Positions 16,985 through 64,000 of a stretch of 64,000 nt of DNA are shown here, in pieces. The stretch lies in the NCBI GenBank assembly GCA_965238225.1, contig OZ250183.1:1184001-1248000 (forward strand), in the 5' to 3' direction. Position 1 is the stretch's first letter. Each line of letters begins with the position of its first letter. Made by a program: the position numbers and the translations under genes. Under the pieces are notes generated by a model. That model did not search any database, was not told where the DNA came from, and was given only the letters and a program-made list of their open reading frames with translations. This DNA comes from Gammaproteobacteria bacterium (GTDB lineage Bacteria; Pseudomonadota; Gammaproteobacteria; Eutrophobiales; Eutrophobiaceae).

Positions 16985-18430
16985 ATGAAACGAACACGCG
17001 GGCATAAAGGGCGTATCTATAGAGTACCACCCGCATAAGGCTGTTGCTGATATCTAAAAGCTACTTGGGAATGAATCTCGCAATCGAGATATGCTGATTG
17101 ACATCTGCATAAAATTCAAGATCGCTTTGGTCAGATTTCCAGTCGTCATATCTTGGCATTATCGATAGAGATGAGTTTGCCTATGGCTGAGGTCTATGAA
17201 ACAGCAACTTTCTACCATCACTTTGATGTCATGAAACCAAAAGAGGCTGCAATACCTCCTTTAACCATACGTGTTTGCGAATCTTTAAGTTGTGAGATGT
17301 TTGGTGCAAAAGAGCTGTTTGAAGATTATAAAATAAAATATAAGAGTGATATTCGTATTCAAAAAATCCCATGCGTTGGTCGCTGCGATAGAGCCCCTGT
17401 TGCCATTGCTGGTACAAACCCTATCGAATATGCCACTTATGAAAAAATAGAGAATGCAGTAGCCAGAAAAGATTTTGATATCGCTCTACCAGAGTACATT
17501 AATTATATTGCTTATAGAAATTCAGGTGGTTACCAAACACTGATTGATTGTGTTAACAATGACCATAAACGAGAAAAAATTGTCAAAATTATGGAAATTC
17601 AAAACTCCGAGGATTGGGAGGTGCGGGCTTTCCTATAGGACAAAAATAGCGCATTTTAAAGCAACAGACCAAGCCTAGGTTAGTCGACATTAACATTGAC
17701 GAAGGTGAGCCTAGAACATTCAAAGATCGTTATTATTTGGAACGAGATCCGCACAGATTTATTGAAGGAACACTCGATGCCGTAGAACACTAGAAAAAGA
17801 ACTGGACGCATCGAAACAAAACCCGCCTTGCAAGTTACCAAATATTTACCTGAGGCGAGGTGCAGGCGCCTATATTTGCGGCGAGGAATCGGCAATGATT
17901 GAATCTATTTGAAAGGCAAGAAAGGGATATCTCGGCTACGATCTCCCTATATTGCTCAGGTTTGCTTATTTGGAAGACCGACACTGGAGCAAAATATAGA
18001 ATCAATGCATTGGGTCAGAGATATCATTGAAAACGGTGCCAAATGGTTTTCATCTGAAGGTCGTCATGGCCGTACAGGGCTAAGATCATTCTCTATAAGC
18101 GGTCGTGTTAATAAGCCTAGCATGCATCTCGCATCTGCAGTATCACAATGCTCAAACTGATTGATGAATATTGTGGTGGCATGCTTGATGGTCATGAATT
18201 TTATGGCTACTTCCCGGGCGGCGCTTCTGGCGGTATCTTGCCCGCGTCACTGGGCAATGTGCCACTGGATTTTGACACGCTTCAAGAGTACGGTTGTTTC
18301 ATTGGTTCAGCTGCGATTGTCGTGCTGTCAAATAAAGACAGCGCTAAAGATATGGCGCTAAATGCCATGCGTTTTTTTGAAGATGAATCTTGCGAACAAT
18401 GCACGCCATGCCGCGTTGGCACAGCAAAGG
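16985..18430 (+). pseudogene. NAD-linked formate dehydrogenase beta subunit (NuoE/NuoF-like, Fdh1B type), decayed
   Basis: Fragments in several frames: [69 protein letters not shown] and ESCEQCTPCRVGT; multiple stops, frameshifts and deletions. Confidence 0.9.
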
Positions 18431-18871
18431 CTTCCCGTTATAAAAGATAATCATATTCAGTATGTTGATGGTCGTAATGGGCTGGAAAACTTGGGAAGAT
18501 TTATGTGTCAAAGGTCGTTATGGTTTTGACTATGTCCACCATTCAGATCGCTTAACAACTCCGCTTATTCGCAAGGAGGGCATGACAAAATCGACAGCCT
18601 TAATCGATCCTTCTGAAATCATAAATATTTTCGAGCAGCAAGCTGGGAGGAAGCCTATCTATTTCAGAAATTGATTAGAACTGGTTTTAAGACCAACAAT
18701 GTGGATCATTGTACCCGTCTATGCCATGCCTCGTCTGTAGTTGCCCTGCTTGAGACTATTGGTTCAGAAGCCGTCTCAAACCAAGTAGCTGATGGCGCTA
18801 ATGCTGAGGTGATTATTGTTATTGGCTCAAGACCAAGTGATAATCATCCTGTTGCAGCCACATTTCTTTAA
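18431..18871 (+). pseudogene. Formate dehydrogenase alpha (Mo/W-pterin) subunit internal fragment
   Basis: [21 protein letters not shown] and [36 protein letters not shown]; the N-terminal Fe-S region and most of the C-terminal part are missing. Confidence 0.88.
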
Positions 18872-18875
18872 TTAT

Positions 18876-19622
18876 TTAAGAACTGAACTCTACACTTTTT
18901 AAGGTCAGAACTTCCCTTACTAAAGGCACAGACGAACTTCCTAAGTCATTGATTACTGTTCTTATTTGGTACAATTTTCCCGGTATTTTATCCGATATAA
19001 TAAATTCATAACTTTTATCAGAAAATTCTCCCAACCTATCTTTATTTTTTATATTTGCATAAGGATATAAAACAATTTTTTCGCCCTCATACTGTTTTCC
19101 TTCCAGTTCAATAGATACATGCTCACTGGTATCACTGTTTGCTATCGCTAACTTTATTTGTCGATGAAAATATTTCCAATTGCCTCCAGTAAAACGATCC
19201 ATTTCGTAAACGTCGCCCTGTAAATATATGCCTAGCACCGGATTGCCAGTGATATGATTCACATTACTGGGTGAAACTTTTTGTTTTTGATCACCTGAAA
19301 AAAAATCAAGTATAGTATCTCTCGTGCCATCCTCATTTATCTTAACAATATCAAGATAAACATCGTCAATGAATCCATCCTCATATGATCCTGTCTTCTC
19401 AAACTCATAGTGCAATCTTGCTGTTTGCTTAATATTTAATAAATGTTTATCTATCCACAGTTTATTTTCGGCATTTGAAAAATTAAATTCATTAGGATCA
19501 ATCATTCCTGTATCATCTATTGAACCGATTTGCGGCTTTATTTCTTTTTTTGTGGTTTCTTCAGAAAAAACCTGAAATGGGCTTAAAAATATAATTAGCA
19601 GTAATGGTAAGTGTCTGATCAT
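18876..19622 (-). CDS. Exported protein of unknown function, apparently co-transcribed with xoxJ
   Basis: Signal peptide; 248 aa intact ORF; 36 bp downstream of xoxJ; no CxxCH motif. Confidence 0.75.
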   Translation of the reverse strand: MIRHLPLLLIIFLSPFQVFSEETTKKEIKPQIGSIDDTGMIDPNEFNFSNAENKLWIDKHLLNIKQTARLHYEFEKTGSYEDGFIDDVYLDIVKINEDGTRDTILDFFSGDQKQKVSPSNVNHITGNPVLGIYLQGDVYEMDRFTGGNWKYFHRQIKLAIANSDTSEHVSIELEGKQYEGEKIVLYPYANIKNKDRLGEFSDKSYEFIISDKIPGKLYQIRTVINDLGSSSVPLVREVLTLKSVEFSS

Positions 19623-19658
19623 TGCAATTTACACTTAAATTTTAACACTGGATGATGA

Positions 19659-20567
19659 CTAGTCATCATCTGGTTCAGACTTTGGCTTCACAGCTACAAT
19701 AGGGATGCCATAGCTACTAATAATCGCGTTTATATCTTCTTGATATTTATCAATAAGCTCATTTAATTGAGCTTTCCATTCATTATCACCATGTCTGACA
19801 GCCATAGACATATTATAAACAAATTTCATTTCTGGCATTTTTGGGTCGTCACCTAAGGGCAGTATCGCCAACTCACCTCTATCTTTATTTTGCGCAGAAA
19901 AATATGCTGCTGTTGGCCCCCAAACGATAGTCGTATCTATTATTCCGTCATATAGATCGTTCAGAATAATTTCGGTGGGGTTTTTTCTGGAATCACCCAA
20001 CTGAAACTGATATGGAACCATCTCGTCCATCAGCTTATGCATGGAAACCCAAAATTGCGCCGGACCACTATCAAACAGACCAAACTTAAACTTATTGCCT
20101 TTAGCCTTTAGCCTTCCCAGCATCTCCGGTTTTGTGATACTGTCTAGTCCTCTGCCTTTCACATACACCAGAGCATAGGTTGATACGTAATAAGGTTTGG
20201 TTGTTGCTGCCAGTTCAAAATGCTCTGGTACGCTCAAAACTAAATCACATTTAAAAATGCCACGTTCTTCAGAACGAAGTGTATTACGAATGAATCCTAT
20301 GCGCTGTGGAAACCATTGGTATTTAAGTTCGGCTCCGAGAGCTTTGGCAAATAATTCAGCGATCTTGTTTTCCATGCCTTCTTGATTTTTATTGGAAAAT
20401 GGCATCAATTCAGGATCGGCGCATACTTTCAAAACAGGACGATTTTTGTATTTAGATTCTTCAGCAAAAGAAATATTACTGATAAAGCCGAGAATAAAAA
20501 TCAGAATCAGGGTAGAAAATCTTCGCGTTGATTGCTTGATAACTATAAAAAAATTTAACATTTTCAT
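19659..20567 (-). CDS. xoxJ: XoxJ/MxaJ-type periplasmic binding-protein homolog
   Basis: LKVCADP..MPFSN, G.ENKIAE, GFIRNTL, CDLV, T.PYY.STY and VWGP motifs; in the xoxF locus. Confidence 0.88.
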   Translation of the reverse strand: MKMLNFFIVIKQSTRRFSTLILIFILGFISNISFAEESKYKNRPVLKVCADPELMPFSNKNQEGMENKIAELFAKALGAELKYQWFPQRIGFIRNTLRSEERGIFKCDLVLSVPEHFELAATTKPYYVSTYALVYVKGRGLDSITKPEMLGRLKAKGNKFKFGLFDSGPAQFWVSMHKLMDEMVPYQFQLGDSRKNPTEIILNDLYDGIIDTTIVWGPTAAYFSAQNKDRGELAILPLGDDPKMPEMKFVYNMSMAVRHGDNEWKAQLNELIDKYQEDINAIISSYGIPIVAVKPKSEPDDD

Positions 20568-20587
20568 AAATTACATCATCAGGATGC

Positions 20588-21004
20588 TTATTTAGTAGCT
20601 GTCAGTTTCTTTTTCAGTTTAAAGATAACGCCCTTCTCTCTGCCTTTAGCATTAGCCTGAATTTGCTCCATATTATTGGCTTCGCCAACAATGATTGCTC
20701 CGATCATGCCATTAGCATAATGCGGATTACACTTATAGATATAAACACCTTCTGCATCTAATGTAATCGCAAATTCCTGACCAATATTTGACTTCCATGC
20801 TTTTACACCTTCAGGTATCAGGTCGTCCATAGACTGAGTATCATGAACAACCATATTGCTCCACTGAACAGTATCCCCTGGCTTTATAAATACATGTATA
20901 GGATTAAAATTAGTCGCGCCTGCCGCGACTATATGTTCTTCGGCGCCTGCATTAAAGGATACGAACAACACCAGCAAATAAGCTAACCTTGGAAAAGTTT
21001 TCAT
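20588..21004 (-). CDS. Periplasmic type-1 blue copper protein (pseudoazurin-like cupredoxin)
   Basis: Signal peptide ending AGA; F.P....I.PGDTV.W, upstream His (VVHD), Y.YKCNPHYANGM (C-x2-H-x4-M) and a helical C-terminal extension. Confidence 0.9.
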   Translation of the reverse strand: MKTFPRLAYLLVLFVSFNAGAEEHIVAAGATNFNPIHVFIKPGDTVQWSNMVVHDTQSMDDLIPEGVKAWKSNIGQEFAITLDAEGVYIYKCNPHYANGMIGAIIVGEANNMEQIQANAKGREKGVIFKLKKKLTATK

Positions 21005-21131
21005 TATTTTCACCCTCACCCTATTGAGGTTTCGTATTGTTTTAAGACAATTAAATTGATATAGCGTTCAATAATATACCATCGGTGCGCACCTGCTACT
21101 AAAAACTACCTAAAGTGCAGACGCAATTAAC

Positions 21132-21164
21132 AAAAAAGCCCCGACCATAAGGTCAGGGCTTTCC
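21132..21164 (-). terminator. Rho-independent terminator/attenuator after xoxF
   Basis: Minus strand AAAGCCCTGACC-TTAT-GGTCGGGGCTTTTTT. Confidence 0.75.
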
Positions 21165-21218
21165 ATAACTACACACAAACCATAAGTTTAAAAAGTTTCA
21201 AACTTACTTAAGTGCTGT

Positions 21219-23120
21219 TTAAGGTAGTGCGAAAACCATCAAAGTACCGCCAGCACGTGAAGACTTCAACAGACCTCTGTAACCACCAACAGCGCCAAGT
21301 GCTGCTGTGTCAGGAGCTGCGGCTAAACCTGGGATAGCAGCAACTGCGCCAGCCCAACCACCAATACCTGATAAGACACCGACATATTGCTTGCCATTGT
21401 GCGTCCAAGTGTTGAAGTTACCGATAATGCCTGAAGGAGTTTTAAATTTCCAAAGAAGCTTACCACTCTTGGCATGTACAGCTTTAGCCCAACCTTCAAG
21501 ATTGCCGTAGAAAACTACGTTGCCTGCGGTTGCAAGCACGCCTGACCATACTGAATACTGCTCAGGAATAGACCATACGATCTTACCTTTGCTAGCATCC
21601 CATGCAATCATATTGCCCATGTTGTCTTTTGCTGCATTGTTGTTCGGACACTCCGGACATACTGCGCCAGCAGGATACATGGTTAAATTTGCATTCACGA
21701 AAGCCTGACCTGAAACATATTTATTACCGCCAGCAGCATAGCTAACTGGTTCGTAAGTCATACATACGTGGTTGGTAGGAACATAGAAAAGACCTGACTT
21801 TGGCGAATAAGCAGCAGGCTGCTCATCCTTAGTACCTAAAGCTGCAGGACAGATGTCTTTAGAAACAACGTCTTCGCCGTTACCGCCTGTGCTCTTGGAA
21901 GCAACACGTTGTGGCAAACCTGTTTTCAGATCAATACCTGTTGCCCAGTTCACTGATGGATCATATTTTTCAGCAACCAACAAAGCACCCGTTTTACGGT
22001 TCATAGTATAGGCAAAGCCATTACGGTCAAAGTGAACCAGTGCTGGTGTCATCTTGCCTTTAACTCTGAAGTCAACCAGAATCATTTCGTTAACGCCATC
22101 ATAGTCCCACTCATCATGAGGAGTCATCTGATAGACCCAATTTGCAACACCAGTGTCGATATCACGAGCGAAAATAGTCATAGACCATTTATTGTCGCCA
22201 GGACGCACAACCGGGTTCCATGTTCCAGGGTTACCACTGCCGTAATACACGAGGTTCGCGTCAAAATCAGCAGGCCACCAACCCCATGTGGAGCCGCCGC
22301 CTTGTTTCCATTGATCACCTTTCCATGAATTCAAGCTGGAATTTTTACCAACTTTCTTACCCAGTGAAGTCGTGTTTTTATCGAACAACATATCTGAATC
22401 AGGACCCATGCTGAAAGCACGCCATGCCAGACTACCGTCTTTTGCGTTGTACGCAGCTAACCAACAACGAACACCAAACTCAGCACCAGAACAACCAGTA
22501 ATAATTTTATCCTTGATTGGGTGCGGTGCATTGGTATTGGTCATACCTGATGTAGGACCGTAAGGACCACCCAAGCTAGCAGGAATATCCGCACCATTTT
22601 TGACTGACCATACGAGCTTACCTGTTTTGGCATTCAGGGCTACCAAAGTGGAGTCAGCTTGTTGCAGATAAATCTGACCCATTGAATAACCAAGACCACG
22701 GTTAACAGTATCGCAGCACATAACTGGTACAGTTACGTCGAAATCCTGTTGTGGTTCGTAATGCCAAATGATTCCCAGTGTATCCAAGTCGATCGCAAAC
22801 GTATTGTTTGGAAAAGCAGCATGAATATACAGGGTATCACCAGACAGACCAGTTGCAGAACTAGGCAGTACTAAAGGACCGCCTTCGTGACCACGCAGAA
22901 CACCTGTTGAAAATGTCCACGCAGCTGATAATTTACCGACATTCCTACTGTTGATTTGTTTCAACTCAGAATAACGATGATTGTTGTAATTACCGCCTGG
23001 AAATGCCCAATAGTTAGGATTCTGTGTCAGCTTACGAACTTCATCATTCGCAGACGCTGCCACAGGCACCATCAGAGCAATCGCAGCGATTACTAACGAT
23101 TTAAAAAATATTTTACTCAT
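21219..23120 (-). CDS. xoxF: Lanthanide-dependent PQQ methanol dehydrogenase
   Basis: Signal peptide, GHEGGPL, vicinal [23 protein letters not shown], and [10 protein letters not shown] with the extra Asp (22098-22106) diagnostic of Ln-binding enzymes (MxaF has Ala there). Confidence 0.95.
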
Positions 23121-23550
23121 ACCTGCCCACCCCTCTTTGAAATGTTATGCTTAAATTATACGCGATCTCGTATGTACACAGAAAACCCTCCAACGTCCTG
23201 AGATCGGCAGACATCAGGAAGAGTTGTAAAAAATTCTATTTTGCTCAGGAATTAATCGAAGATATCCAAACCACACAGACTCTGCAGACGGTTTAAAAAA
23301 ATGTTGACTGCTATCATATATTTTTATCAGATATCCATTCAATGTTAATTATTTTGATTCGCTTTGAGCATCTACAAAAACTACGATAAAAAATCGCAAT
23401 AAATTCGTTTTTAGCGATCATTGCAATATTTGTATTTATTATTTCCTTAAAATTTGTACTTTATTAGGTATTACTACCAGTCGTACTTCATTCTCAGTGG
23501 ATGAGAGTTGCATTGTAGCAAGTAAATTTTATCCTAACAAACTTTATTAT

Positions 23551-23584
23551 TTAATCCTGAACTTTAATTAATCCTGAACTTTAA
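23551..23584. repeat. Exact 17-bp tandem duplication upstream of xoxF
   Basis: TTAATCCTGAACTTTAA x2. Confidence 0.8.
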
Positions 23585-24085
23585 ATCTTTAAAATTCTAA
23601 AATTTTATCCTTAAAAACATTGAAGAAAATATTACCAGTATCATACGTTACTTACCAAACAATTATCAGCAACAACTTTAAAGTACACATCCAATTAATG
23701 CAGTGCAGCAATTCTAGATGAGTATTTTTAAAGCGTACAAATATATTTCCACACATTTCAGTCCGTTTTATTTTGATGGTTTGCATTAAGAATATGTACG
23801 TGTACGATCGTATATCTTAGTCATCTATTATTTAATTACTTAATTAATAATTACTTAGATAATCTTTTTAAATAATAAGATTAACTCTTGATATGATTAG
23901 TTTGATATTATTTGGAGTTAATCTCATCCGTTCTTTCATGAAAATTTAGTGAAATTTGATGGTATTGAGCCCTCGCCGACAGGTAAACGTCGTGTTGCTA
24001 AAATTATAAAGACTCAAAAAAACATTGTTAAAGATTTACACCTGAAATGAATATTTAGTATTATTATCTGGCGGCATTAAGAAAA

Positions 24086-24951
24086 ATGACATTTGTATTC
24101 AAAACATTAATCCATGCAGCCTCGGCGATGGTCATATTTGCACTGGCCATACCAGTCATGGCCGGTATAGACCTTGATAATCTGAGAAACAGAAACCTAA
24201 ACGACCTGAAAAAGGCATCTGATAAGGTCTAGGGGGAAACCCTGCGCCCTAGGGCATTTCAAAATAGGACAATTAATGAAAAACAAGCCGATGCTGTCAT
24301 TGATGCAAAGGCTCCTTTTAGGTCAGAAGATGCGTCGATAGTACCAGTTTCTATTCACTACAAAGATTCCACAGACGATGGATCGCTACATTAAAAAATT
24401 ACATATCTACCTCGATAAGAATCCATTGCCGCTTGTTGGCATCTTTAAATTTACACCTGAAAGTGGTAAAGCAGATATTGCTATGCGTATCAGAGTTGAC
24501 GACAACACCTGTTTTCGCGTTATCACAGAAATGAATAATGGTGACTTATTGATGAGTAAATCATTTATCCGCTCACTCGGTGGTTGTTCAGAACCTTTGG
24601 GCGCAAGTTGTAGATGAATCACTTAGACGTATGGACAAAATGAAGATGAAGATCGTGGGAGATTTATCCTTTAGGATAAGAGACTATGATGCAACTTAAG
24701 ATAAGCCATCCAAATATCACGGGCTTGGTACCAGCCAAAAAACTGGCATCAAACCACCTCCTCATTTCTTAAAAGAATTTAAAGTAAGCTATGACGGTAA
24801 AACAATCATGAAGGCCAATATAACATTTGCCATCTCCCAAGATCCTATCTTTCGTTTCTTTTTCACGCCAAAAAAGGAAACGGATATAATCGTTCAAGCT
24901 ATCAATACGAAAAATAATGAATTGCAATCAACACATTCAGTGACCTTATAA
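24086..24951 (+). pseudogene. Quinoprotein dehydrogenase-associated SoxYZ-like carrier, inactivated
   Basis: Signal peptide; TAG at 24230 (probably TGG ancestrally); AP.RSEDASIVPV, IYLDKNPLP, RIRVD, GGCS.P, ISHPNITGL and AISQDP.FRF motifs split over at least three frameshifts. Confidence 0.85.
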
Positions 24952-25133
24952 AATAAGTTAATGTACAGAAAACTGGATACATAGACTTCATAGTCACTAA
25001 GCCCTGCAAAGTTAATCGTGGTTAAAAGGAGCTCTTGTTCCTTCCTCTAATTTAATTTACAAAACAGTTTAATAAGTTCGTAAATTTCATTTTGTCTAAA
25101 CTTATCTGAATCCTTTATAATCTTGTTGCACCT

Positions 25134-25544
25134 TCATTTTATCTCTTGTATCTCATCGTATCTTTCGTCTCCCGTCAGATCTGTTGGTGCTACAATTTGC
25201 ACAATCTGTTTACATTGGCTTTTAGCTACCTCTTCAGCCATCGCTAATTTTTTTGAAAAGATTTTGCCAGATTTGTTATCCCTGAAGATTCCACCTTTTT
25301 CACCTGTCATTCCTTGATTTCGATTATAGGTCACTGCATAGCCATATGTTTCAAACAATATTTCTGATGCAACCGAGTCAAGCCGACATGAGCATGTGTG
25401 TAAATCGTCCATAGAATTTCTACCAAGCTCTTGAAGACAATTAAGCACATATTCAACCCTGTCGCGCGTTGGATAGTCATTCGCAATAACGATCGATGGC
25501 GCGCTAAATAACAGCACAATGGAAATAACCTTACTCACTTGCAT
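25134..25544 (-). CDS. Small exported Cys-containing protein of the type found in PQQ-dehydrogenase loci
   Basis: GAGGT Shine-Dalgarno, signal peptide, ANDYPT.DRVEYV..C...CSC..D and GEKGG.FRD pattern; family recognised from memory only. Confidence 0.7.
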   Translation of the reverse strand: MQVSKVISIVLLFSAPSIVIANDYPTRDRVEYVLNCLQELGRNSMDDLHTCSCRLDSVASEILFETYGYAVTYNRNQGMTGEKGGIFRDNKSGKIFSKKLAMAEEVAKSQCKQIVQIVAPTDLTGDERYDEIQEIK

Positions 25545-25659
25545 TCTATGCACCTCAAAATTTAAACTAATAACAATTATAATATCTTGAACAACCAATA
25601 CATTTTTCAATTACATAAGAAAAAATAGCCCGAAGATAATAACTCAGAAAAATATTTTA

Positions 25660-26940
25660 TTAAATCAAACTCATTATTGACTCCATGATTTTTTTAACAT
25701 TGCCCCGATTTCTCAAGACAACATTTCGCCCACGCTCGCCCACGCTCGCCCTTAGGTTCGCGTCACTTAACAGATCGCTCACTATACTGGATAACTCATA
25801 TACATTCGCCACTCTCCATGCTGCACCTTCATCTATTAACAATTGACTAATTGCCTGAAAATTAAATACATGTGGTCCCATGATTACTGGCAATCCCAAG
25901 CAAGCTGGTTCCAGCATATTATGACCGCCTGCTTCGGTCAGGCTACCGCCAACAAATGCGACATCAGCGCTGGCATAATACATTGGCAATTCACCTAGAG
26001 TGTCAAGAATGAAAACCTTAATATTCTCATTAAATTCTTTGTTGTCACTTTTGGACAATACTTCAAGATTTCCTCTGCCGCATAATGCTCTAACGTTTTC
26101 TGAGCGTTCAGGGTGTCTTGGCGCAATAATAAGCAGGCATTTAGGGTGTTTTTCTAGGATTCTTTCAAAAGCATTTAAAATTATTTTTTCTTCACCTTCG
26201 TGCGTACTTGCGGCTATCCATATTGGTCTATTAATATCTGTTCCACTCATAGAAAAATATCTTCGTAAAGATTTTGCCTGTTCGTGGATACTGTGCGGAA
26301 AATGAATATCAAATTTTAAATTTCCGACAATACTGACTTTATCAGCATCAGCCCCGAGCCTTACAAATCGTTTTGCATCTCTTTTTTCCTGAGCCACAAT
26401 CAACGAAATATCCTGAAGTGTTGCCCGCGTTAATGATGGAAAATATCGATAGCCATTGACAGATTTCTCAGACATACGTGCATTGACGATAATTACAGGT
26501 ACATTTTTTTTGCGACAATAATAAAATAAATTTGGCCACAATTCTGTTTCCATAATAATTAATATTAATGGGTCAACATTAGAAATAAAATTCTTTATAG
26601 ATAAAGGTAAATCGTAAGGAAGATACAGATGTTTTACATCATCGCTAAAGTATTTCCTAACACAGTCAGCGCCTGTAGGTGTCATGGTTGTGAGCAATAT
26701 TTTGTAATCCGAGTATTCTGCCTGTAAACTTTCTACCAATGGTCTTGATGCCTGAACTTCTCCAACAGAAACAGCATGCAGCCAGATAATTTTATTATGT
26801 GATGTAATTTTACCCGGAAAACCAAACCGCTCTCTCCAACGAGCTCTGTAAGCTAAATTTCGAAAACCAAGAAAAAATAGCCTTAGTACAGCAAAAGGAA
26901 CAAGTAAATAAAGAATAAAAGAATAGATTATTCTCAACAA
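25660..26940 (-). CDS. waaA: Kdo transferase
   Basis: WLHAVSVGE, ETELWPN, AASTHEGEE, APRHPER and GGHNMLEPA motifs. Confidence 0.96.
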   Translation of the reverse strand: MLRIIYSFILYLLVPFAVLRLFFLGFRNLAYRARWRERFGFPGKITSHNKIIWLHAVSVGEVQASRPLVESLQAEYSDYKILLTTMTPTGADCVRKYFSDDVKHLYLPYDLPLSIKNFISNVDPLILIIMETELWPNLFYYCRKKNVPVIIVNARMSEKSVNGYRYFPSLTRATLQDISLIVAQEKRDAKRFVRLGADADKVSIVGNLKFDIHFPHSIHEQAKSLRRYFSMSGTDINRPIWIAASTHEGEEKIILNAFERILEKHPKCLLIIAPRHPERSENVRALCGRGNLEVLSKSDNKEFNENIKVFILDTLGELPMYYASADVAFVGGSLTEAGGHNMLEPACLGLPVIMGPHVFNFQAISQLLIDEGAAWRVANVYELSSIVSDLLSDANLRASVGERGRNVVLRNRGNVKKIMESIMSLI

Positions 26941-29371: not shown

Positions 29372-29483
29372 TATGCTATTGACACTCGCCCGTTTGTTAT
29401 TAGAGTTGTAATAAATTGAGTGTAATGTTACCACTGAATACTTGTTTTGGTACTCCAAATACAGATAATTGCCATTAATTGCC

Positions 29484-30201
29484 ATGAAAAAAGAATATCA
29501 AATATTTCTCATTATTTTACTAATTTTTACTTCGCCGTTACGTGCAGAAAAAAACTTACCGCCGCCATTTGAGGCATTATTTAAAGTATTCATAAAAGGC
29601 TTAACGGTAGCTGAAATACGTAATAGTCTAACTCAACTTGATAATGATAATTATGTATGCCACACAGAAATAAATTCAATAGGGCTAGCATCCATTTTTT
29701 ATCAACTACATATTACGGAAGAATCACGTTGGTATCAGAAGGATCAACAATTAAGACCTTTGATTTATAGTTATGACCGTATTAAGAAAAAAAGGCAACT
29801 CATAAAAGAGTCATGTTTGATTGGGAAAATTATCAGATAAATTATATCCACGATGGAAAAAAATTAAGCTTTGAATTACAAACAGGAATGACTGATAAAC
29901 TACTCTGCCAAATAAATCTCATGCGCGATCTAAAAATTGGCCATTACCCAACAAGCTACACTGTTGCAGGCAATGAAAAAATCGAGACCTACATCTTCCA
30001 ATACCTTGGGGAAGAATTAATAAAAACGCCTATTGGTAAATTTAATACTGTGAAATTTTTCTGTCAAAAAGACGGAGAAGAAAGAAGTGCAATCTTTAAT
30101 AGTCTGCTAAAGAACTACATTATCTTCCTGTCAAGGTTAAACTCACCGATGATGGCGTTAAAACAATCATAATTAGCCAGTTAAATGGATTGGATCTATG
30201 A
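29484..30201 (+). pseudogene. DUF3108-like exported protein, frameshifted
   Basis: Signal peptide; frame breaks at the A-rich run near 29785-29793 and near 30095; the C-terminal AKELHYLPVKV motif lies in another frame. Confidence 0.65.
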
Positions 30202-59894: not shown

Positions 59895-62721
59895 TTAGGC
59901 AGTTTGCCATGTTTCAGTCAATACTGTTTGCAAGCTATCAGCAACATCTTGTGCTATGACATTACCTGCACCAAGTGGTACATCATAAGCTGCCATGGCA
60001 TTGACTAATTTGTAGACATCATCTTGTAGTAACACTGATGAACCAACTTGGAAACTATCTAGTTTGGCATCATCATCATTTGCGTACCAGCGCCTCACCC
60101 TCACTTGATCATCGGTGCCAACGACAGTAATCAGTAAGTCTGTATCGTCTGCATTACCTGCATAGGATGTTTTACTTCGGCTAAACCACAAGTCTTGTGT
60201 GTCTATAGCCTGAAATAGTAATTTATCTTCATCCGTACCTTCGTCCGCTGAGTCTGTATCATAATTATGAATGGTTAGATTATCGTCACCTCGGGAAAAT
60301 AGATAAGTATCGTTACCGTTACCTCCAACCAAGATGTCAGCGCCGTTTTGTCCATACAGGAAATCGTCACCATCACCTCCATTCAAGTAATCACGACCAG
60401 CACCTCCATACAGGAAATCGTTACCATTATCTCCATACAATGTATCCCCCTCACCGGAACCACCGCTTAGTACATCATCGCCGGCACCTCCAACCAAGGT
60501 ATCGTTACCGTCACCTCCATATAGGAAATCGTTACCAGCACCCCCATGCAAGGTACTCGAACCACCGCCAAGCTCTTCCAGTAGATCATTACCACTGCCA
60601 CCAAGGAAATAGCCACCACCAAAGAAAGAGCCATCGCTCCTCCCATACGAGTTTTCTGGCAATGTCCATACAGTACCGTCAGCAAACTCAACTTGGTCTA
60701 ATAGGTAATCATCACTTAGGAAGTGATCGTAAATCGTTATAGTCTCTGTTGTGTTATTAGGGCTGTTTACTTGTAATAGAAGATTATTATCTGCGCGAGT
60801 TACTCGAACATCTGTAGTAGCAATGCCTGCGTCAAGTTTCAAGGTATCTGTGCTATTGCTTGTATCAAGGTTATGAATGCTTGTATCACCGTCACCTAAA
60901 GAAAACCGATAAATATCGTTACCGTTACCGCCAACTAAGACATCCGTACCAGAGCCACCGCTTAGTACATCATCGCCATTTTGGCCGTACAGGGTATCGT
61001 CACCGTTATCGCCGTTTAAGGTATCATCGCCGTTTTGTCCGTACAGGGTATCGTCACCGTCACCGCCATTTAAGGTATCGTTATCGTTACCGCCGTATAG
61101 TGTATCTGTGCCGTTACCTCCATTCAGGGTATCGTTATCGTTACCTCCGAACAAGATATCCGTACCAGAGCCACCGCTTAGTACATCATCACCGTTTTGT
61201 CCATACAGCTTATCGTCACCGTTACCGCCATTTAAGGTATCGTTATCGTTACCGCCGTATAGTGTATCTGTGCCGTTACCGCCATTTAAGATATCGTTGC
61301 CAGTCCAGCCGCCTAAGATATCGTCGCCGTCATCGCCGTTTAAGGTATCGTTACCAGCACCTCCATTTAAGGTATCGTTATCGTTACCGCCAGACAAGAT
61401 ATCCGCACCAGAACCACCGCTTAGTACATCATCACCGTTTTGTCCATACAGCTTATCGTCACCGTCACCGCCATTTAAGGTATCGTTATCGTTACCGCCG
61501 TATAGTGTATCTGTGCCGTTACCTCCGAACAGGGTATCGTTATCGTTACCGCCAGCCAAGGTATCGCTACCGTCATCCCCATTCAAGTAATCCTCACCGT
61601 TTTGTCCATACAGCTTATCGTCACCGTTACCGCCATTTAAGGTATCGTTATCGTTACCGCCGTATAGTGTATCTGTGCCGTTACCGCCATTTAAGATATC
61701 GTTGCCAGTCCAGCCGCCTAAGATATCGTCGCCGTCATCGCCACTTAAGGTATCGTTACCAGCATTTCCATACAGGGTATCGTTATCGTCATCTCCAAAC
61801 AGGGTATCGTCACCGCTACCGCCAACCAAGGTATCGTCACCGGCATCTCCACTCAAGTAATCCTCACCGTCACCGCCAGACAAGGTATCCGTACCAGAAC
61901 CGCCAACCAAGGTATCGTTGCCGTCATCTCCATACAGCTTATCGTTATCGTTACCTCCGTATAGGGTATCCGTACCAGAACCACCGCTTAGTACATCATC
62001 GCCGTTTTGTCCGTACAGGATATCGACACCGGCATCTCCATACAGGGTATCGTCACACCGCCACCAAGATATCGTCAGACAAGATATCGTCACCGTACCG
62101 CCATTTAAGGTATCCTACCAGAACCGCAAGGTATCGTTACCGTTTTGTCCCAGCTTATCACCGTCATCACCGTAAGGGTATCCGTACCAGAACCACCGAG
62201 CAGTGCATCGTCACCGGCATCTCCATACAGGGTATCGTTATCGTTACCGCCAAACAAGATATCCGCACCAGAACCACCGCTTAGTGCATCATCGCCGTTT
62301 TGTCCGTACAGGGTATCGACACCGGCATCTCCATACAGGGTATCGTCACCGGCATCTCCATACAGGAAATCGTCACCGTCACCGCCATTTAAGGTATCGA
62401 CACCGGCATCTCCATACAGGGTATCGTCACCGTCATCCCCTTTTAAGATATCTACGCGCCTGCGCCGCCGTTTAAGTAATCATCACCGTCACCGCCATTT
62501 AAGGTATCGTCACCGGCATTTCCAAACAGGATATCGTTATCTCCATTCAGGGTATCGTTACCGTCATCTCCAAACAGGGTATCGTTACCGTTACCGCCAT
62601 TTAAGGTATCGTTACCGGCATTTCCATACAGGGTATCGTTACCGGCATTTCCATGCAGGGTATCGTTGTCACCAAGACCTTCTAATCGATCATCACCATC
62701 ACCACCATTAACATTAGCCAT
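59895..62721 (-). pseudogene. Type I-secreted RTX (hemolysin-type Ca-binding repeat) protein; reading frame broken near 62455 and across about 62050-62180 (real lesion or assembly artefact)
   Basis: AGGA Shine-Dalgarno then [11 protein letters not shown]; dozens of GGxGxDxLx nonapeptides; an HCBP-related segment (TI.DHF....DQVEFADGTVW); C-terminal LWFSR...LVNAMAAY secretion-signal-like region; adjacent to hlyD. Confidence 0.8.
60910..62700 (-). repeat. 27-bp RTX nonapeptide tandem array with a 405-bp higher-order duplication
   Basis: The distinctive GGWTGNDILNGG-coding block starts at 61296 and 61701, 405 bp apart (15 x 27). Confidence 0.9.
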
Positions 62722-63241: not shown

Positions 63242-64000
63242 TTATCGCTCCCTGAGGCTTTCTTTTCGAGACCGTAATAATGGTGCCAGAAAAAACTCAA
63301 TGATTCTTCTGTATCCTATTTTCATTTCTGCGGTAACTGCCATACCCGGAATTAACTTTACGTCTTTACCTTTCACTCGGATAGTATCCTTTTCCATTAT
63401 AATGCGCATACCGTAAACCAAGCCGAGATTTTCATCAAATGTGGCATCATCAGAGACAGTCGTTACTTCACCATCAATAATACCGTACTTGGTAAACGGG
63501 AAGGTATGGATTTTAATCTCCGCTGTCATACCTTCGTTGACAAAACCAATATCTTTGTTTGCTAAAAAGACTTCGGCTTCTAATTGTTCTTGGTCAGGCA
63601 CGATAAGCATGAGTTGTTGTGCTCCGGTGACAACGCCGCCAATGGTATTGGCCGCAAGTTCTTGCACCCTGCCTGCAACTGGAGCATAGAGAATTTGTTT
63701 GGCATTTATGTCTTTGGCTTTAATCAGCTCTTCGTTCATTGCCGCTAATTGGCGTTGATACTCGGTTATTTTAGAAAGCTGTTCGGCCTGAGTTTGCGCT
63801 GTAAATGTATTCACTTGTTGTTTAATTTCATTCATCACTGCTTGTAATTGTTTTAGCCGTTGTTTTTCTGAGGCGAGGTTTTGTGTGATCTCAATACGCT
63901 CTTGTTCCAGTGTCAAATATTCATCTTCTGAGGAAAATTTTTGCTCGTAGAGCTTTTTGAATTTTGCAGTACGACGACTCACGATCGGTAAGGTTCTCTT
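63242..64000 (-). CDS. hlyD: HlyD-family type I secretion membrane-fusion protein (5' end beyond the window)
   Basis: Coiled coil, APV.G.V, TIGGVV, KDIGFV, FPFTKYG, PGMAVTAE and RRIIEFFL.P...ESLRER motifs. Confidence 0.93.
   Translation of the reverse strand, partial: KRTLPIVSRRTAKFKKLYEQKFSSEDEYLTLEQERIEITQNLASEKQRLKQLQAVMNEIKQQVNTFTAQTQAEQLSKITEYQRQLAAMNEELIKAKDINAKQILYAPVAGRVQELAANTIGGVVTGAQQLMLIVPDQEQLEAEVFLANKDIGFVNEGMTAEIKIHTFPFTKYGIIDGEVTTVSDDATFDENLGLVYGMRIIMEKDTIRVKGKDVKLIPGMAVTAEMKIGYRRIIEFFLAPLLRSRKESLRER

What the first reader, a model, noticed from the sequence alone, without database searches (positions are those of the whole stretch)
18876..23120. XoxF locus with a pseudoazurin-like cupredoxin where cytochrome c XoxG is normally encoded
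Seen: xoxF, a type-1 copper protein (His plus C-x2-H-x4-M, signal peptide), xoxJ and an exported protein are co-oriented; the cupredoxin stop is only 20 bp from the xoxJ ORF; no CxxCH heme protein is visible in the locus. Known: MxaF/XoxF enzymes pass electrons to a dedicated c-type cytochrome (MxaG/XoxG), normally encoded with F and J; cupredoxins are established acceptors for methylamine dehydrogenase and some quinohemoprotein alcohol dehydrogenases, but to my knowledge not for XoxF. Inference: a heme-free lanthanide-PQQ to copper electron-transfer module, possibly iron-sparing.
Basis: partly seen in the sequence, partly recalled or inferred. Interest (0 to 1): 0.85.

Follow-up and report, generated by a model that had tools for sequence, protein, structure and literature searches.

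The report
Copper protein replaces cytochrome beside XoxF
In this bacterium and a whole group of its relatives, the gene beside the rare-earth methanol dehydrogenase that usually encodes its heme electron carrier encodes a small blue-copper protein instead, so methanol-derived electrons may leave by copper rather than heme, though no experiment has tested this.

Summary
On the minus strand lie xoxF (23120..21219), a pseudoazurin-type cupredoxin (21019..20588, probable start 21004), xoxJ (20567..19659) and an exported 248-aa protein (19622..18876). No real ORF in the 64 kb carries CxxCH.

The arrangement is conserved. Of 81 XoxF rows (80 loci plus the window), the window falls in a 20-row clade (support 100/100) marked by an 8-residue insertion.
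- In that clade, 13 rows have a cupredoxin in the F-J slot, 3 have F-J with nothing between, 3 have F alone, 1 is cut off, and 0 have a cytochrome.
- Of the other 61 rows, 55 have a CxxCH XoxG-type cytochrome there. Three Vibrionaceae have a cupredoxin.
- All four type-1 copper ligands are invariant in 26 of 26 cupredoxins.
- The operon is intact although genes on both sides have decayed.

Best reading, confidence about 0.55: the cupredoxin is XoxF's electron acceptor in place of XoxG.

Not shown: electron transfer, absence of xoxG elsewhere in the genome, and iron-sparing. Methylococcus keeps xoxG away from xoxFJ, so absence from the locus proves little.

Eight literature searches of the library found no paper linking XoxF to a cupredoxin. 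I rate it a new variant of a known kind.

The parts
21219..23120 (-). xoxF: lanthanide-type PQQ methanol dehydrogenase, 633 aa, with a signal peptide (by eye). It belongs to a XoxF5-like subclade marked by an 8-residue insertion (LPSSATGL, about residues 85-92).
   Evidence: TIGR03075 653.6 bits against cut-off 480. Best solved relatives are XoxF 6dam (E 6.9e-239) and 6oc5 (E 3.8e-220). The WDYDG motif (D339, D341), C135-C136, E214 and N297 are invariant in 30 of 30 aligned XoxF. The insertion is present in 18 of 18 clade rows and 0 of 12 others.
21133..21164 (-). Terminator-like hairpin followed by a T-run, between xoxF and the cupredoxin gene. It probably attenuates or stabilises the transcript rather than ending the operon.
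   Evidence: 14-bp stem; -21.3 kcal/mol. Similar hairpins follow xoxF in 9 of 15 cupredoxin loci, 25 of 54 cytochrome loci, 6 of 7 F-J loci and 3 of 3 F-alone loci.
20588..21019 (-). Pseudoazurin-type cupredoxin, exported. 143 aa from the GTG at 21019; more likely 138 aa from the ATG at 21004. Proposed electron acceptor of XoxF.
   Evidence: PF00127 E 7.5e-14. TIGR02375 88.4 bits, below cut-off 109.85. Solved pseudoazurins 5x31 and 1paz at about E 4e-19, aligned over residues 32-137. H59, C97, H100 and M105 invariant in 26 of 26. RBS and start.
19659..20567 (-). xoxJ: periplasmic binding-protein-like partner of XoxF. Starts 20 nt after the cupredoxin stop.
   Evidence: TIGR03871 246.2 bits against cut-off 212; PF00497. 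Spacing. In L011, L018 and L023 the cupredoxin and xoxJ ORFs overlap by 1-4 nt.
18876..19622 (-). Exported 248-aa protein of no described family, with a LolA-like half-barrel in the model. It is an accessory gene specific to this XoxF clade; its role is unknown.
   Evidence: No Pfam or NCBIfam match. A homologue (36-50% identity) follows xoxJ in 14 clade loci, including the three F-J loci. AF2 model pLDDT 81.2, pTM 0.76. Best PDB fold matches are LolA, LprG, RseB and MucB, probability up to 1.0 but TM only 0.2-0.4. Atlas neighbours are all unnamed.
24080..24942 (+). Decayed SoxYZ-like carrier gene, divergent from xoxF and broken over three reading frames. It is intact next to xoxF in relatives.
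   Evidence: tblastn with the L018 SoxYZ protein gives pieces at 24080-24379 (frame 3), 24360-24596 (frame 1) and 24610-24942 (frame 2). The 79-aa ORF 24378..24617 matches PF13501 SoxY positions 44-112 only.
25134..25610 (-). Small exported protein (158 aa as listed) conserved upstream of the xox cluster in relatives. Function unknown.
   Evidence: 33-36% identity to the 122-aa and 146-aa ORFs in the same position in L018 and L022. No Pfam match.

Best explanation
The locus encodes a lanthanide/PQQ methanol dehydrogenase (XoxF) whose dedicated periplasmic electron acceptor is a pseudoazurin-type blue-copper protein instead of the c-type cytochrome XoxG.

Proposed path:
1. Methanol is oxidised at Ln-PQQ in XoxF.
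2. PQQH2 is re-oxidised in two one-electron steps by the type-1 copper centre of the cupredoxin.
3. The reduced cupredoxin passes electrons to a terminal oxidase, another carrier, or a copper nitrite reductase encoded elsewhere.
4. XoxJ and the clade-specific 248-aa protein are accessory factors made from the same cupredoxin-xoxJ-P248 unit.

Shown: gene identities, intact copper ligands, export signals (by eye), exact positional replacement of xoxG, conservation across a clade, and retention in a decaying neighbourhood.

Inferred: every electron-transfer step, and the identity of the downstream acceptor.
For: 1. Position. Among 81 XoxF rows, 55 of the 61 outside the window's clade have a CxxCH ORF between xoxF and xoxJ (L049 re-scored). 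Five of five sampled best match the methanol-related cytochrome model TIGR03874. In the window's clade (20 rows, support 100/100) that slot holds a cupredoxin in 13 rows and a cytochrome in 0.

2. Conservation despite divergence. Clade cupredoxins are only 31-42% identical to the window's, yet all four Cu ligands are invariant in 26 of 26.

3. Tight coupling to xoxJ: 20 nt here and 1-4 nt ORF overlaps in L011, L018 and L023.

4. Closer relatives. 12 of the 28 best XoxF hits (81-92% identity) share an exact longest-contig length of 5,850 bp or more with a cupredoxin hit (for example 1,442,423; 2,264,529; 5,850). A 13th matches through a cluster member. This suggests both genes lie on the same contigs.

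5. Selection. The operon is intact while formate dehydrogenase on one side and the SoxYZ-like gene on the other are broken.

6. A second set of loci, three cultured Vibrionaceae, also has xoxF-cupredoxin-...-xoxJ and no cytochrome.

7. Precedent from established knowledge (recalled, not tested here): cupredoxins accept electrons from other periplasmic quinoproteins, such as amicyanin from methylamine dehydrogenase and azurin from a quinohemoprotein alcohol dehydrogenase. Pseudoazurin potentials lie in the same range as cytochrome cL and XoxG.
Against: - There is no biochemical or expression evidence of any kind.
- The rest of the genome could not be searched, so an xoxG elsewhere is not excluded. 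Methylococcus species have xoxFJ with xoxG at a separate site (PMC8527097, passage).
- Six of 20 clade rows have no carrier gene beside xoxF (3 F-J-P248, 3 F alone), so carriers encoded elsewhere must serve at least those XoxFs.
- A strong terminator-like hairpin separates xoxF from the cupredoxin gene. The same feature precedes xoxG in 25 of 54 cytochrome-type loci.
- The Vibrionaceae case is not shown to be independent. An AU test does not reject a tree uniting them with the clade (p 0.539).
- The known partners of pseudoazurins are denitrification enzymes (PMC12848317, graphical-abstract passage).
- Net charge and pI of XoxF and of the carriers show no clear complementary shift.
Confidence: 0.55

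Rival explanations
1. The cupredoxin is a second-tier carrier, analogous to cytochrome cH. A XoxG-type cytochrome encoded elsewhere takes electrons from XoxF, and the cupredoxin relays them to an oxidase or nitrite reductase. It has simply been recruited into the xox operon.
For: xoxG can lie away from xoxFJ (PMC8527097 passage). Six of 20 clade loci have no carrier next to xoxF. Pseudoazurins are known as donors to terminal reductases (PMC12848317 passage).
Against: No cytochrome-family ORF lies within the held flanks of the 19 clade loci. The few CxxCH ORFs there are antisense, a polysaccharide deacetylase, or match no Pfam family. The cupredoxin occupies exactly the xoxG slot and is tightly coupled to xoxJ, as xoxG is.
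Confidence: 0.22
2. The cupredoxin serves a process unrelated to methanol oxidation, for example as a donor to copper nitrite reductase, and its place in the operon has no functional meaning.
For: The best family match is pseudoazurin. A terminator-like hairpin lies between xoxF and the gene.
Against: The position is kept in 13 of 20 clade rows at 31-42% cupredoxin identity, and in three Vibrionaceae. It scores below the pseudoazurin equivalog cut-off in 5 of 5 cases tested. The hairpin is generic to xoxF operons.
Confidence: 0.1
3. The cupredoxin acts with XoxJ and the 248-aa protein in maturation, redox poising or reactivation of XoxF, for example keeping PQQ or the vicinal disulfide in the right state, rather than as the bulk electron outlet.
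For: It is coupled most tightly to xoxJ, not xoxF. F-J-P248 loci exist without it. The role of XoxJ itself is unsettled (recalled).
Against: A full, invariant type-1 site is typical of diffusible electron carriers. No precedent is known to me.
Confidence: 0.08

Closest known systems
Canonical xoxF-xoxG-xoxJ operons (XoxF5 type, e.g. Methylorubrum extorquens XoxF1/XoxG/XoxJ)
   Same: Same enzyme family (6oc5 E 3.8e-220), same xoxJ family, same gene order and same hairpin after xoxF. The carrier gene sits between F and J.
   Different: The carrier is a cupredoxin, not a CxxCH cytochrome. XoxF carries an 8-residue clade-specific insertion. An extra 248-aa gene follows xoxJ.
xoxFJ clusters of Methylococcus and relatives, with xoxG encoded elsewhere
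   Same: No cytochrome gene in the xox locus. The best solved relative of this XoxF is the gammaproteobacterial methanotroph enzyme 6dam.
   Different: Those clusters have nothing between F and J (PMC8527097 passage). Here a cupredoxin fills the slot. 6dam lacks the 8-residue insertion (alignment).
Pseudoazurins of denitrifiers (solved: 1paz/5x31, 1bqk, 1adw, 1pmy)
   Same: Same fold family by sequence, the same four Cu ligands, and a C-terminal extension aligned to residue 137.
   Different: It scores below the NCBIfam pseudoazurin cut-off (88.4 against 109.85). Its genomic partner is a quinoprotein dehydrogenase operon, not nir or nos genes. Some family members are lipoprotein-tethered with long linkers.
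Amicyanin/methylamine dehydrogenase and azurin/quinohemoprotein alcohol dehydrogenase pairs (recalled from the literature, not examined here)
   Same: A periplasmic quinoprotein dehydrogenase paired with a dedicated cupredoxin encoded in or near its operon.
   Different: The cofactor or enzyme family differs (TTQ, or PQQ plus heme). Amicyanin matches only weakly (TIGR02657 E 3.9e-4). No such pair is described for MxaF/XoxF in the searches run.
Cytochrome cGJ (XoxG-XoxJ fusion) of Methylacidiphilum (cited in the reference list of PMC8546591)
   Same: Shows that the carrier and XoxJ are functionally linked. Here the carrier gene is also coupled to xoxJ.
   Different: No cupredoxin-XoxJ fusion was found. 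Only 3 longer forms turned up among 513 candidates, all carrying PF00127 alone (weak evidence).

Membership tests
XoxF (lanthanide-dependent PQQ methanol dehydrogenase) | Matches the methanol/ethanol PQQ dehydrogenase model above its curated cut-off | tested here: met
   TIGR03075 653.6 bits against 480.05
XoxF (lanthanide-dependent PQQ methanol dehydrogenase) | Extra lanthanide-coordinating Asp two residues after the catalytic Asp (D-Y-D), plus the vicinal Cys-Cys | tested here: met
   WDYDG at 338-342; D339, D341, C135 and C136 invariant in 30 of 30 aligned XoxF. The role of these residues is recalled knowledge.
XoxF (lanthanide-dependent PQQ methanol dehydrogenase) | Closest solved structures are XoxF rather than MxaF or ethanol dehydrogenases | tested here: met
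   6dam E 6.9e-239 and 6oc5 E 3.8e-220, against MxaF-type about 1e-156 to 1e-162 and ethanol dehydrogenases 1e-90 or weaker
XoxF (lanthanide-dependent PQQ methanol dehydrogenase) | Lanthanide-dependent methanol oxidation | not testable with these tools
   Needs an enzyme assay
Canonical xoxFGJ system | A c-type cytochrome (CxxCH, XoxG) encoded with xoxF and xoxJ | tested here: not met
   No CxxCH in any real ORF of the 64 kb window. 0 of 20 clade rows have one in the slot, against 55 of 61 other rows.
Pseudoazurin (TIGR02375) | Type-1 copper ligand set His, Cys, His, Met with C-x2-H-x4-M spacing | tested here: met
   H59, C97, H100 and M105 align to the ligand positions of 1paz/5x31 and are invariant in 26 of 26
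Pseudoazurin (TIGR02375) | Score above the curated equivalog cut-off | tested here: not met
   88.4 bits against 109.85. Four relatives score 59.5-84.2. So it is pseudoazurin-like, a separate subfamily.
Pseudoazurin (TIGR02375) | C-terminal helical extension beyond the cupredoxin barrel | tested here: inconclusive
   The sequence aligns with pseudoazurin chains to residue 137, covering their C-terminal segment. No structure of this protein was predicted.
Pseudoazurin (TIGR02375) | Electron donor to nitrite, NO or N2O reductases | not testable with these tools
   No such genes in the window. The rest of the genome was not available.
XoxJ / MoxJ-like binding protein (TIGR03871) | Matches the quinoprotein dehydrogenase-associated SBP model above its cut-off and lies next to the dehydrogenase | tested here: met
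   246.2 bits against 212.15. MoxJ proper scores 93.9 against 258.1, so is not met.
LolA superfamily (for the 248-aa protein) | Open half-barrel with a helical plug, recognisable by fold comparison | tested here: inconclusive
   Foldseek probability up to 1.0 to LolA, LprG, RseB and MucB, but TM 0.2-0.4 and rmsd 8-16 A. No sequence family match.

The most novel reading that the evidence does not exclude
A whole clade of lanthanide methanol dehydrogenases has swapped its heme carrier for a dedicated blue-copper protein. This would be the first MxaF/XoxF-type enzyme to hand electrons to copper.

In its boldest form, the swap makes the periplasmic methanol branch heme-free. It could be an adaptation to iron scarcity, or a direct wire from methanol oxidation to copper enzymes such as nitrite reductase. 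The clade-specific 8-residue insertion in XoxF and the 248-aa LolA-like protein would be parts of the new docking or maturation machinery.
Probability: 0.45. Interest if true: 0.8.

Novelty: new variant of a known kind. Interest (0 to 1): 0.65.

Why it matters
Every characterised methanol dehydrogenase of the MxaF/XoxF type is thought to need a dedicated c-type cytochrome. A clade that uses a cupredoxin would change three things:
- the textbook electron path for methanol oxidation;
- the in vitro assays used for XoxF, giving a natural, spectroscopically convenient acceptor;
- the metal budget (lanthanide, copper, iron) assumed for these methylotrophs.

The idea is directly testable. Both proteins are small or well-behaved families, and three cultured Vibrionaceae carry the same arrangement.

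The cupredoxin subfamily is common in sequence data. 137 of 174 scored candidates passed E <= 1e-5, and the 120 listed are 55-79% identical apart from the window's own copy.

Tried and rejected
- **Complex prediction.** XoxF residues 25-633 with cupredoxin residues 27-143, using alignments A2 and A1: no verdict, score 0.00 in both runs, controls not run. This counts neither for nor against binding.
- **Charge complementarity.** Net charge and pI of XoxF (18 clade rows, 53 cytochrome-type, 3 Vibrionaceae) and of the carriers (17 cupredoxins, 54 cytochromes; mature parts approximated) showed no clear shift.
- **Rosetta-stone fusion.** The longer-protein search found 3 hits among 513 candidates (257-295 aa, PF00127 only). 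There is no cupredoxin-XoxJ fusion, but this search is weak evidence.
- **Independent origin in Vibrionaceae.** The free trees place them outside the 20-row clade. The AU test does not reject uniting them with it (p 0.539; the constrained tree had the higher likelihood). I therefore dropped the 'convergent replacement' argument.
- **Remnants in F-J gaps.** No remnant of a cupredoxin or xoxG in the F-J gaps of L003, L022, L026, L048, L057 or L063: best E 0.025 over many queries, so none is credible.
- **Taxon naming.** Cluster look-up of 10 cupredoxin relatives gave nothing beyond 'Gammaproteobacteria bacterium'. The same was true of the XoxF hits.
- **Representative-library search with the cupredoxin.** 2121 hits at E <= 1e-3, 381 at 1e-10 and 18 at 1e-30, many of them multi-domain repeats. 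With no context, it did not help.
- **Rfam.** Nothing at E <= 0.1 over 17000-26000.
- **The hairpin as evidence against co-expression.** Rejected, because it is equally common before xoxG.
- **Literature.** Eight searches found nothing linking XoxF to a cupredoxin: xoxF+pseudoazurin (3 papers), xoxF+cupredoxin (6), xoxF+azurin (7), xoxG+'blue copper' (0), pseudoazurin+lanthanide (5), 'methanol dehydrogenase'+pseudoazurin (7), xoxJ+plastocyanin (0), and xoxG+'electron acceptor'+'gene cluster'+absent (11). I read only listings plus passages of PMC6697039, PMC12848317, PMC12423496, PMC8527097 and PMC8546591. Subscription-only papers, such as the 2014 review of PQQ methanol dehydrogenases, were not searchable.

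Full report
**What is there.** Four co-oriented minus-strand ORFs occupy 18876-23120.
- The first (23120..21219, 633 aa) is a PQQ dehydrogenase of the methanol/ethanol family: TIGR03075, 653.6 bits against a cut-off of 480. Its closest solved relatives are the lanthanide enzymes XoxF 6dam (E 6.9e-239) and 6oc5 (E 3.8e-220), ahead of calcium MxaF enzymes. It has the WDYDG motif with the extra Asp and the vicinal Cys pair. These residues are invariant in 30 of 30 aligned relatives.
- The second (21019..20588) is a cupredoxin: PF00127, E 7.5e-14. Its best curated model is pseudoazurin, but at 88.4 bits it is below the 109.85 cut-off. It aligns with solved pseudoazurins over residues 32-137 at about E 4e-19, with His, Cys, His and Met in the ligand positions. 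The real start is probably the ATG at 21004 behind a GAGGGTG site, giving the 138 aa of the database copy.
- The third (20567..19659) is XoxJ: TIGR03871, 246.2 bits against a cut-off of 212. It starts 20 nt after the cupredoxin stop.
- The fourth (19622..18876, 248 aa) matches no family.

No real ORF in the whole 64 kb window has CxxCH.

**Surroundings.** The window carries the H4MPT formaldehyde-oxidation genes (fae, mch, fhcBADC), hopanoid genes and LPS core genes. G+C is about 40%. The cupredoxin's own database record sits on a 1,722,049 bp contig.

The neighbourhood is decaying.
- Between the 248-aa gene and fhcC, the NAD-formate dehydrogenase is reduced to frameshifted beta-subunit pieces plus residues 245-420 of a 934-aa alpha subunit.
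- Upstream of xoxF, a SoxYZ-like carrier gene that is intact in relatives is split over three frames.
- A DUF3108 gene at about 29517-30097 is frameshifted.

The xoxF-cupredoxin-xoxJ-P248 unit between these wrecks is intact.

**Comparative evidence.** A scan of one genome per species with XoxF returned the best 80 loci, at 57-77% identity. I scored the gene between xoxF and xoxJ in each and built XoxF trees (quick; careful).

The window falls in a clade of 20 rows (bootstrap/SH-aLRT 100/100):

| Arrangement | Rows (of 20) |
|---|---|
| Cupredoxin in the F-J slot (window plus L001, L002, L004, L009-L014, L016, L018, L023) | 13 |
| xoxF-xoxJ-P248 with a 337-384 bp gap and no gene (L003, L022 Methylohalomonas lacus, L026) | 3 |
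| xoxF alone (L006, L007, L019) | 3 |
| Contig ends (L005) | 1 |
| Cytochrome in the slot | 0 |

Of the other 61 rows:
- 55 have a CxxCH ORF in the slot. L049 was first mis-scored because of an over-extended xoxJ ORF and was corrected.
- 3 have F-J with nothing between (L048, L057, L063).
- 3 have a cupredoxin, all Vibrionaceae (Enterovibrio paralichthyis, Grimontia hollisae, E. baiacu). There it is followed by an unassigned 126-130 aa ORF before xoxJ.

Five of five sampled cytochromes best match TIGR03874, 'c-type cytochrome, methanol metabolism-related'. Four of four further cupredoxins best match pseudoazurin below its cut-off.

The clade is also marked by an 8-residue insertion after HEGGPLV, present in 18 of 18 clade rows aligned and 0 of 12 others. 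A homologue of the 248-aa protein directly follows xoxJ in 14 clade loci.

The four copper ligands are invariant in 26 of 26 cupredoxins, although identity to the window's falls to 29-42% in the loci.

Among nearer relatives, 12 of the 28 best XoxF hits (81-92% identity) have exactly the same longest-contig length (5,850 bp to 2.26 Mb) as a cupredoxin hit. A 13th matches through. I left out two further matches at 2,443 and 2,024 bp, because such contigs could not hold both whole genes. This suggests the pair stays together in the window's closer kin. Gene order there could not be checked because metagenome contigs were closed.

**Points against over-reading.**
- A strong terminator-like hairpin (21164..21133, -21.3 kcal/mol) lies between xoxF and the cupredoxin gene. 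The same kind of hairpin follows xoxF in 25 of 54 cytochrome-type loci and 9 of 15 cupredoxin loci. It looks like a general device for making more XoxF than accessory proteins, not a sign of separate function.
- Absence of xoxG from the locus is not absence from the genome. Methylococcus has xoxFJ with xoxG elsewhere (PMC8527097, passage). Six clade members have no carrier gene in cis.
- The Vibrionaceae loci cannot be counted as an independent replacement. The AU test does not reject a tree uniting them with the clade (p 0.539).
- Charge statistics gave no signal.

**The 248-aa protein.** An AlphaFold2 model from 15 sequences (pLDDT 81.2, pTM 0.76) resembles LolA, LprG, RseB and MucB half-barrels. 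Foldseek probability is high but TM-scores are low, 0.2-0.4. I call it LolA-like only as a lead. Its restriction to this XoxF clade, with or without the cupredoxin, suggests a role tied to the enzyme rather than to the carrier.

**Mechanism.** The best-supported reading is that the cupredoxin has taken over XoxG's job as the one-electron acceptor of PQQH2 in XoxF (confidence 0.55). Established pairs of quinoprotein dehydrogenases with cupredoxins (amicyanin, azurin) make this chemically ordinary; that is recalled knowledge, not tested here.

The rivals are:
- a relay role behind an unlinked XoxG (0.22);
- an unrelated, for example denitrification, role (0.10);
- a maturation or redox-poising role with XoxJ (0.08).

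Iron-sparing and a direct link to copper nitrite reductase are attractive but entirely untested.

**Novelty.** Eight full-text searches found no paper that connects XoxF or methanol dehydrogenase with a cupredoxin acceptor. The passages I read in the overlapping papers are unrelated. Subscription-only literature was not searchable. I rate it a new variant of a known kind: a known enzyme system with a different class of carrier, conserved in a clade and testable in cultured bacteria.

**What stayed unchecked.**
- The rest of the window's genome: xoxG, other cytochromes, oxidases, nir genes.
- Gene order around the 137 metagenomic cupredoxin relatives.
- The position of the XoxF insertion relative to the active-site funnel.
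- All biochemistry.

Noticed in passing
window 16985-18868 (+): NAD-dependent formate dehydrogenase pseudogene. The beta subunit is in several frames with stops, and only residues 245-420 of a 934-aa alpha subunit remain. Relatives (L001, L022) have intact genes in the same place.
   Followed up: partly
window 24080-24942 (+): A SoxYZ-like carrier gene divergent from xoxF is broken over three frames. Intact SoxYZ-like ORFs lie in 36 of 80 XoxF loci, of both cupredoxin and cytochrome types.
   Followed up: partly
window 29517-30097 (+): A DUF3108 gene next to dsbC is split into two frames (ORFs 29469..29840 and 29813..30172). It is intact in L022. This is the third decayed gene within about 13 kb, which suggests a genome undergoing reduction.
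   Followed up: partly
window 23121-24080: About 950 bp upstream of xoxF has no ORF above 49 aa and no Rfam match. It may hold the promoter or regulatory region, or further decayed DNA.
   Followed up: partly
window XoxF residues about 85-92; alignment A2: An 8-residue insertion (LPxSxTGL) after HEGGPLV marks the whole cytochrome-less XoxF clade (18 of 18 against 0 of 12). The window and a few relatives carry further insertions (about residues 177-190, 461-465) and a CPxCP-containing loop (about 488-492). Their position relative to the active site is unknown.
   Followed up: partly
L012 9929-10573 and 10749-11213; L010 3058-3723; P0117: Some loci encode a lipobox-bearing cupredoxin with a long low-complexity linker. 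L012 has both this tethered form and a soluble one in tandem between xoxF and xoxJ.
   Followed up: no
L033 5187-7741 and 10345-12138 (also L024, L047): In Vibrionaceae the xoxF-cupredoxin locus sits with rhodanese, metallo-beta-lactamase, SoxYZ, an unassigned 126-130 aa ORF between the cupredoxin and xoxJ, and a DUF3280 protein. No function has been tested.
   Followed up: partly
window 59895-62093 (-) and 63242-63982 (-): A large RTX-repeat, calcium-binding protein lies next to a HlyD-type type I secretion adaptor. All family matches are below their cut-offs.
   Followed up: no
window 20911-20931: A perfect 8-bp inverted repeat (TAGTCGCG...CGCGACTA) lies inside the cupredoxin coding region, just after the signal-peptide cleavage site. 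The terminator scan flagged it on both strands.
   Followed up: no
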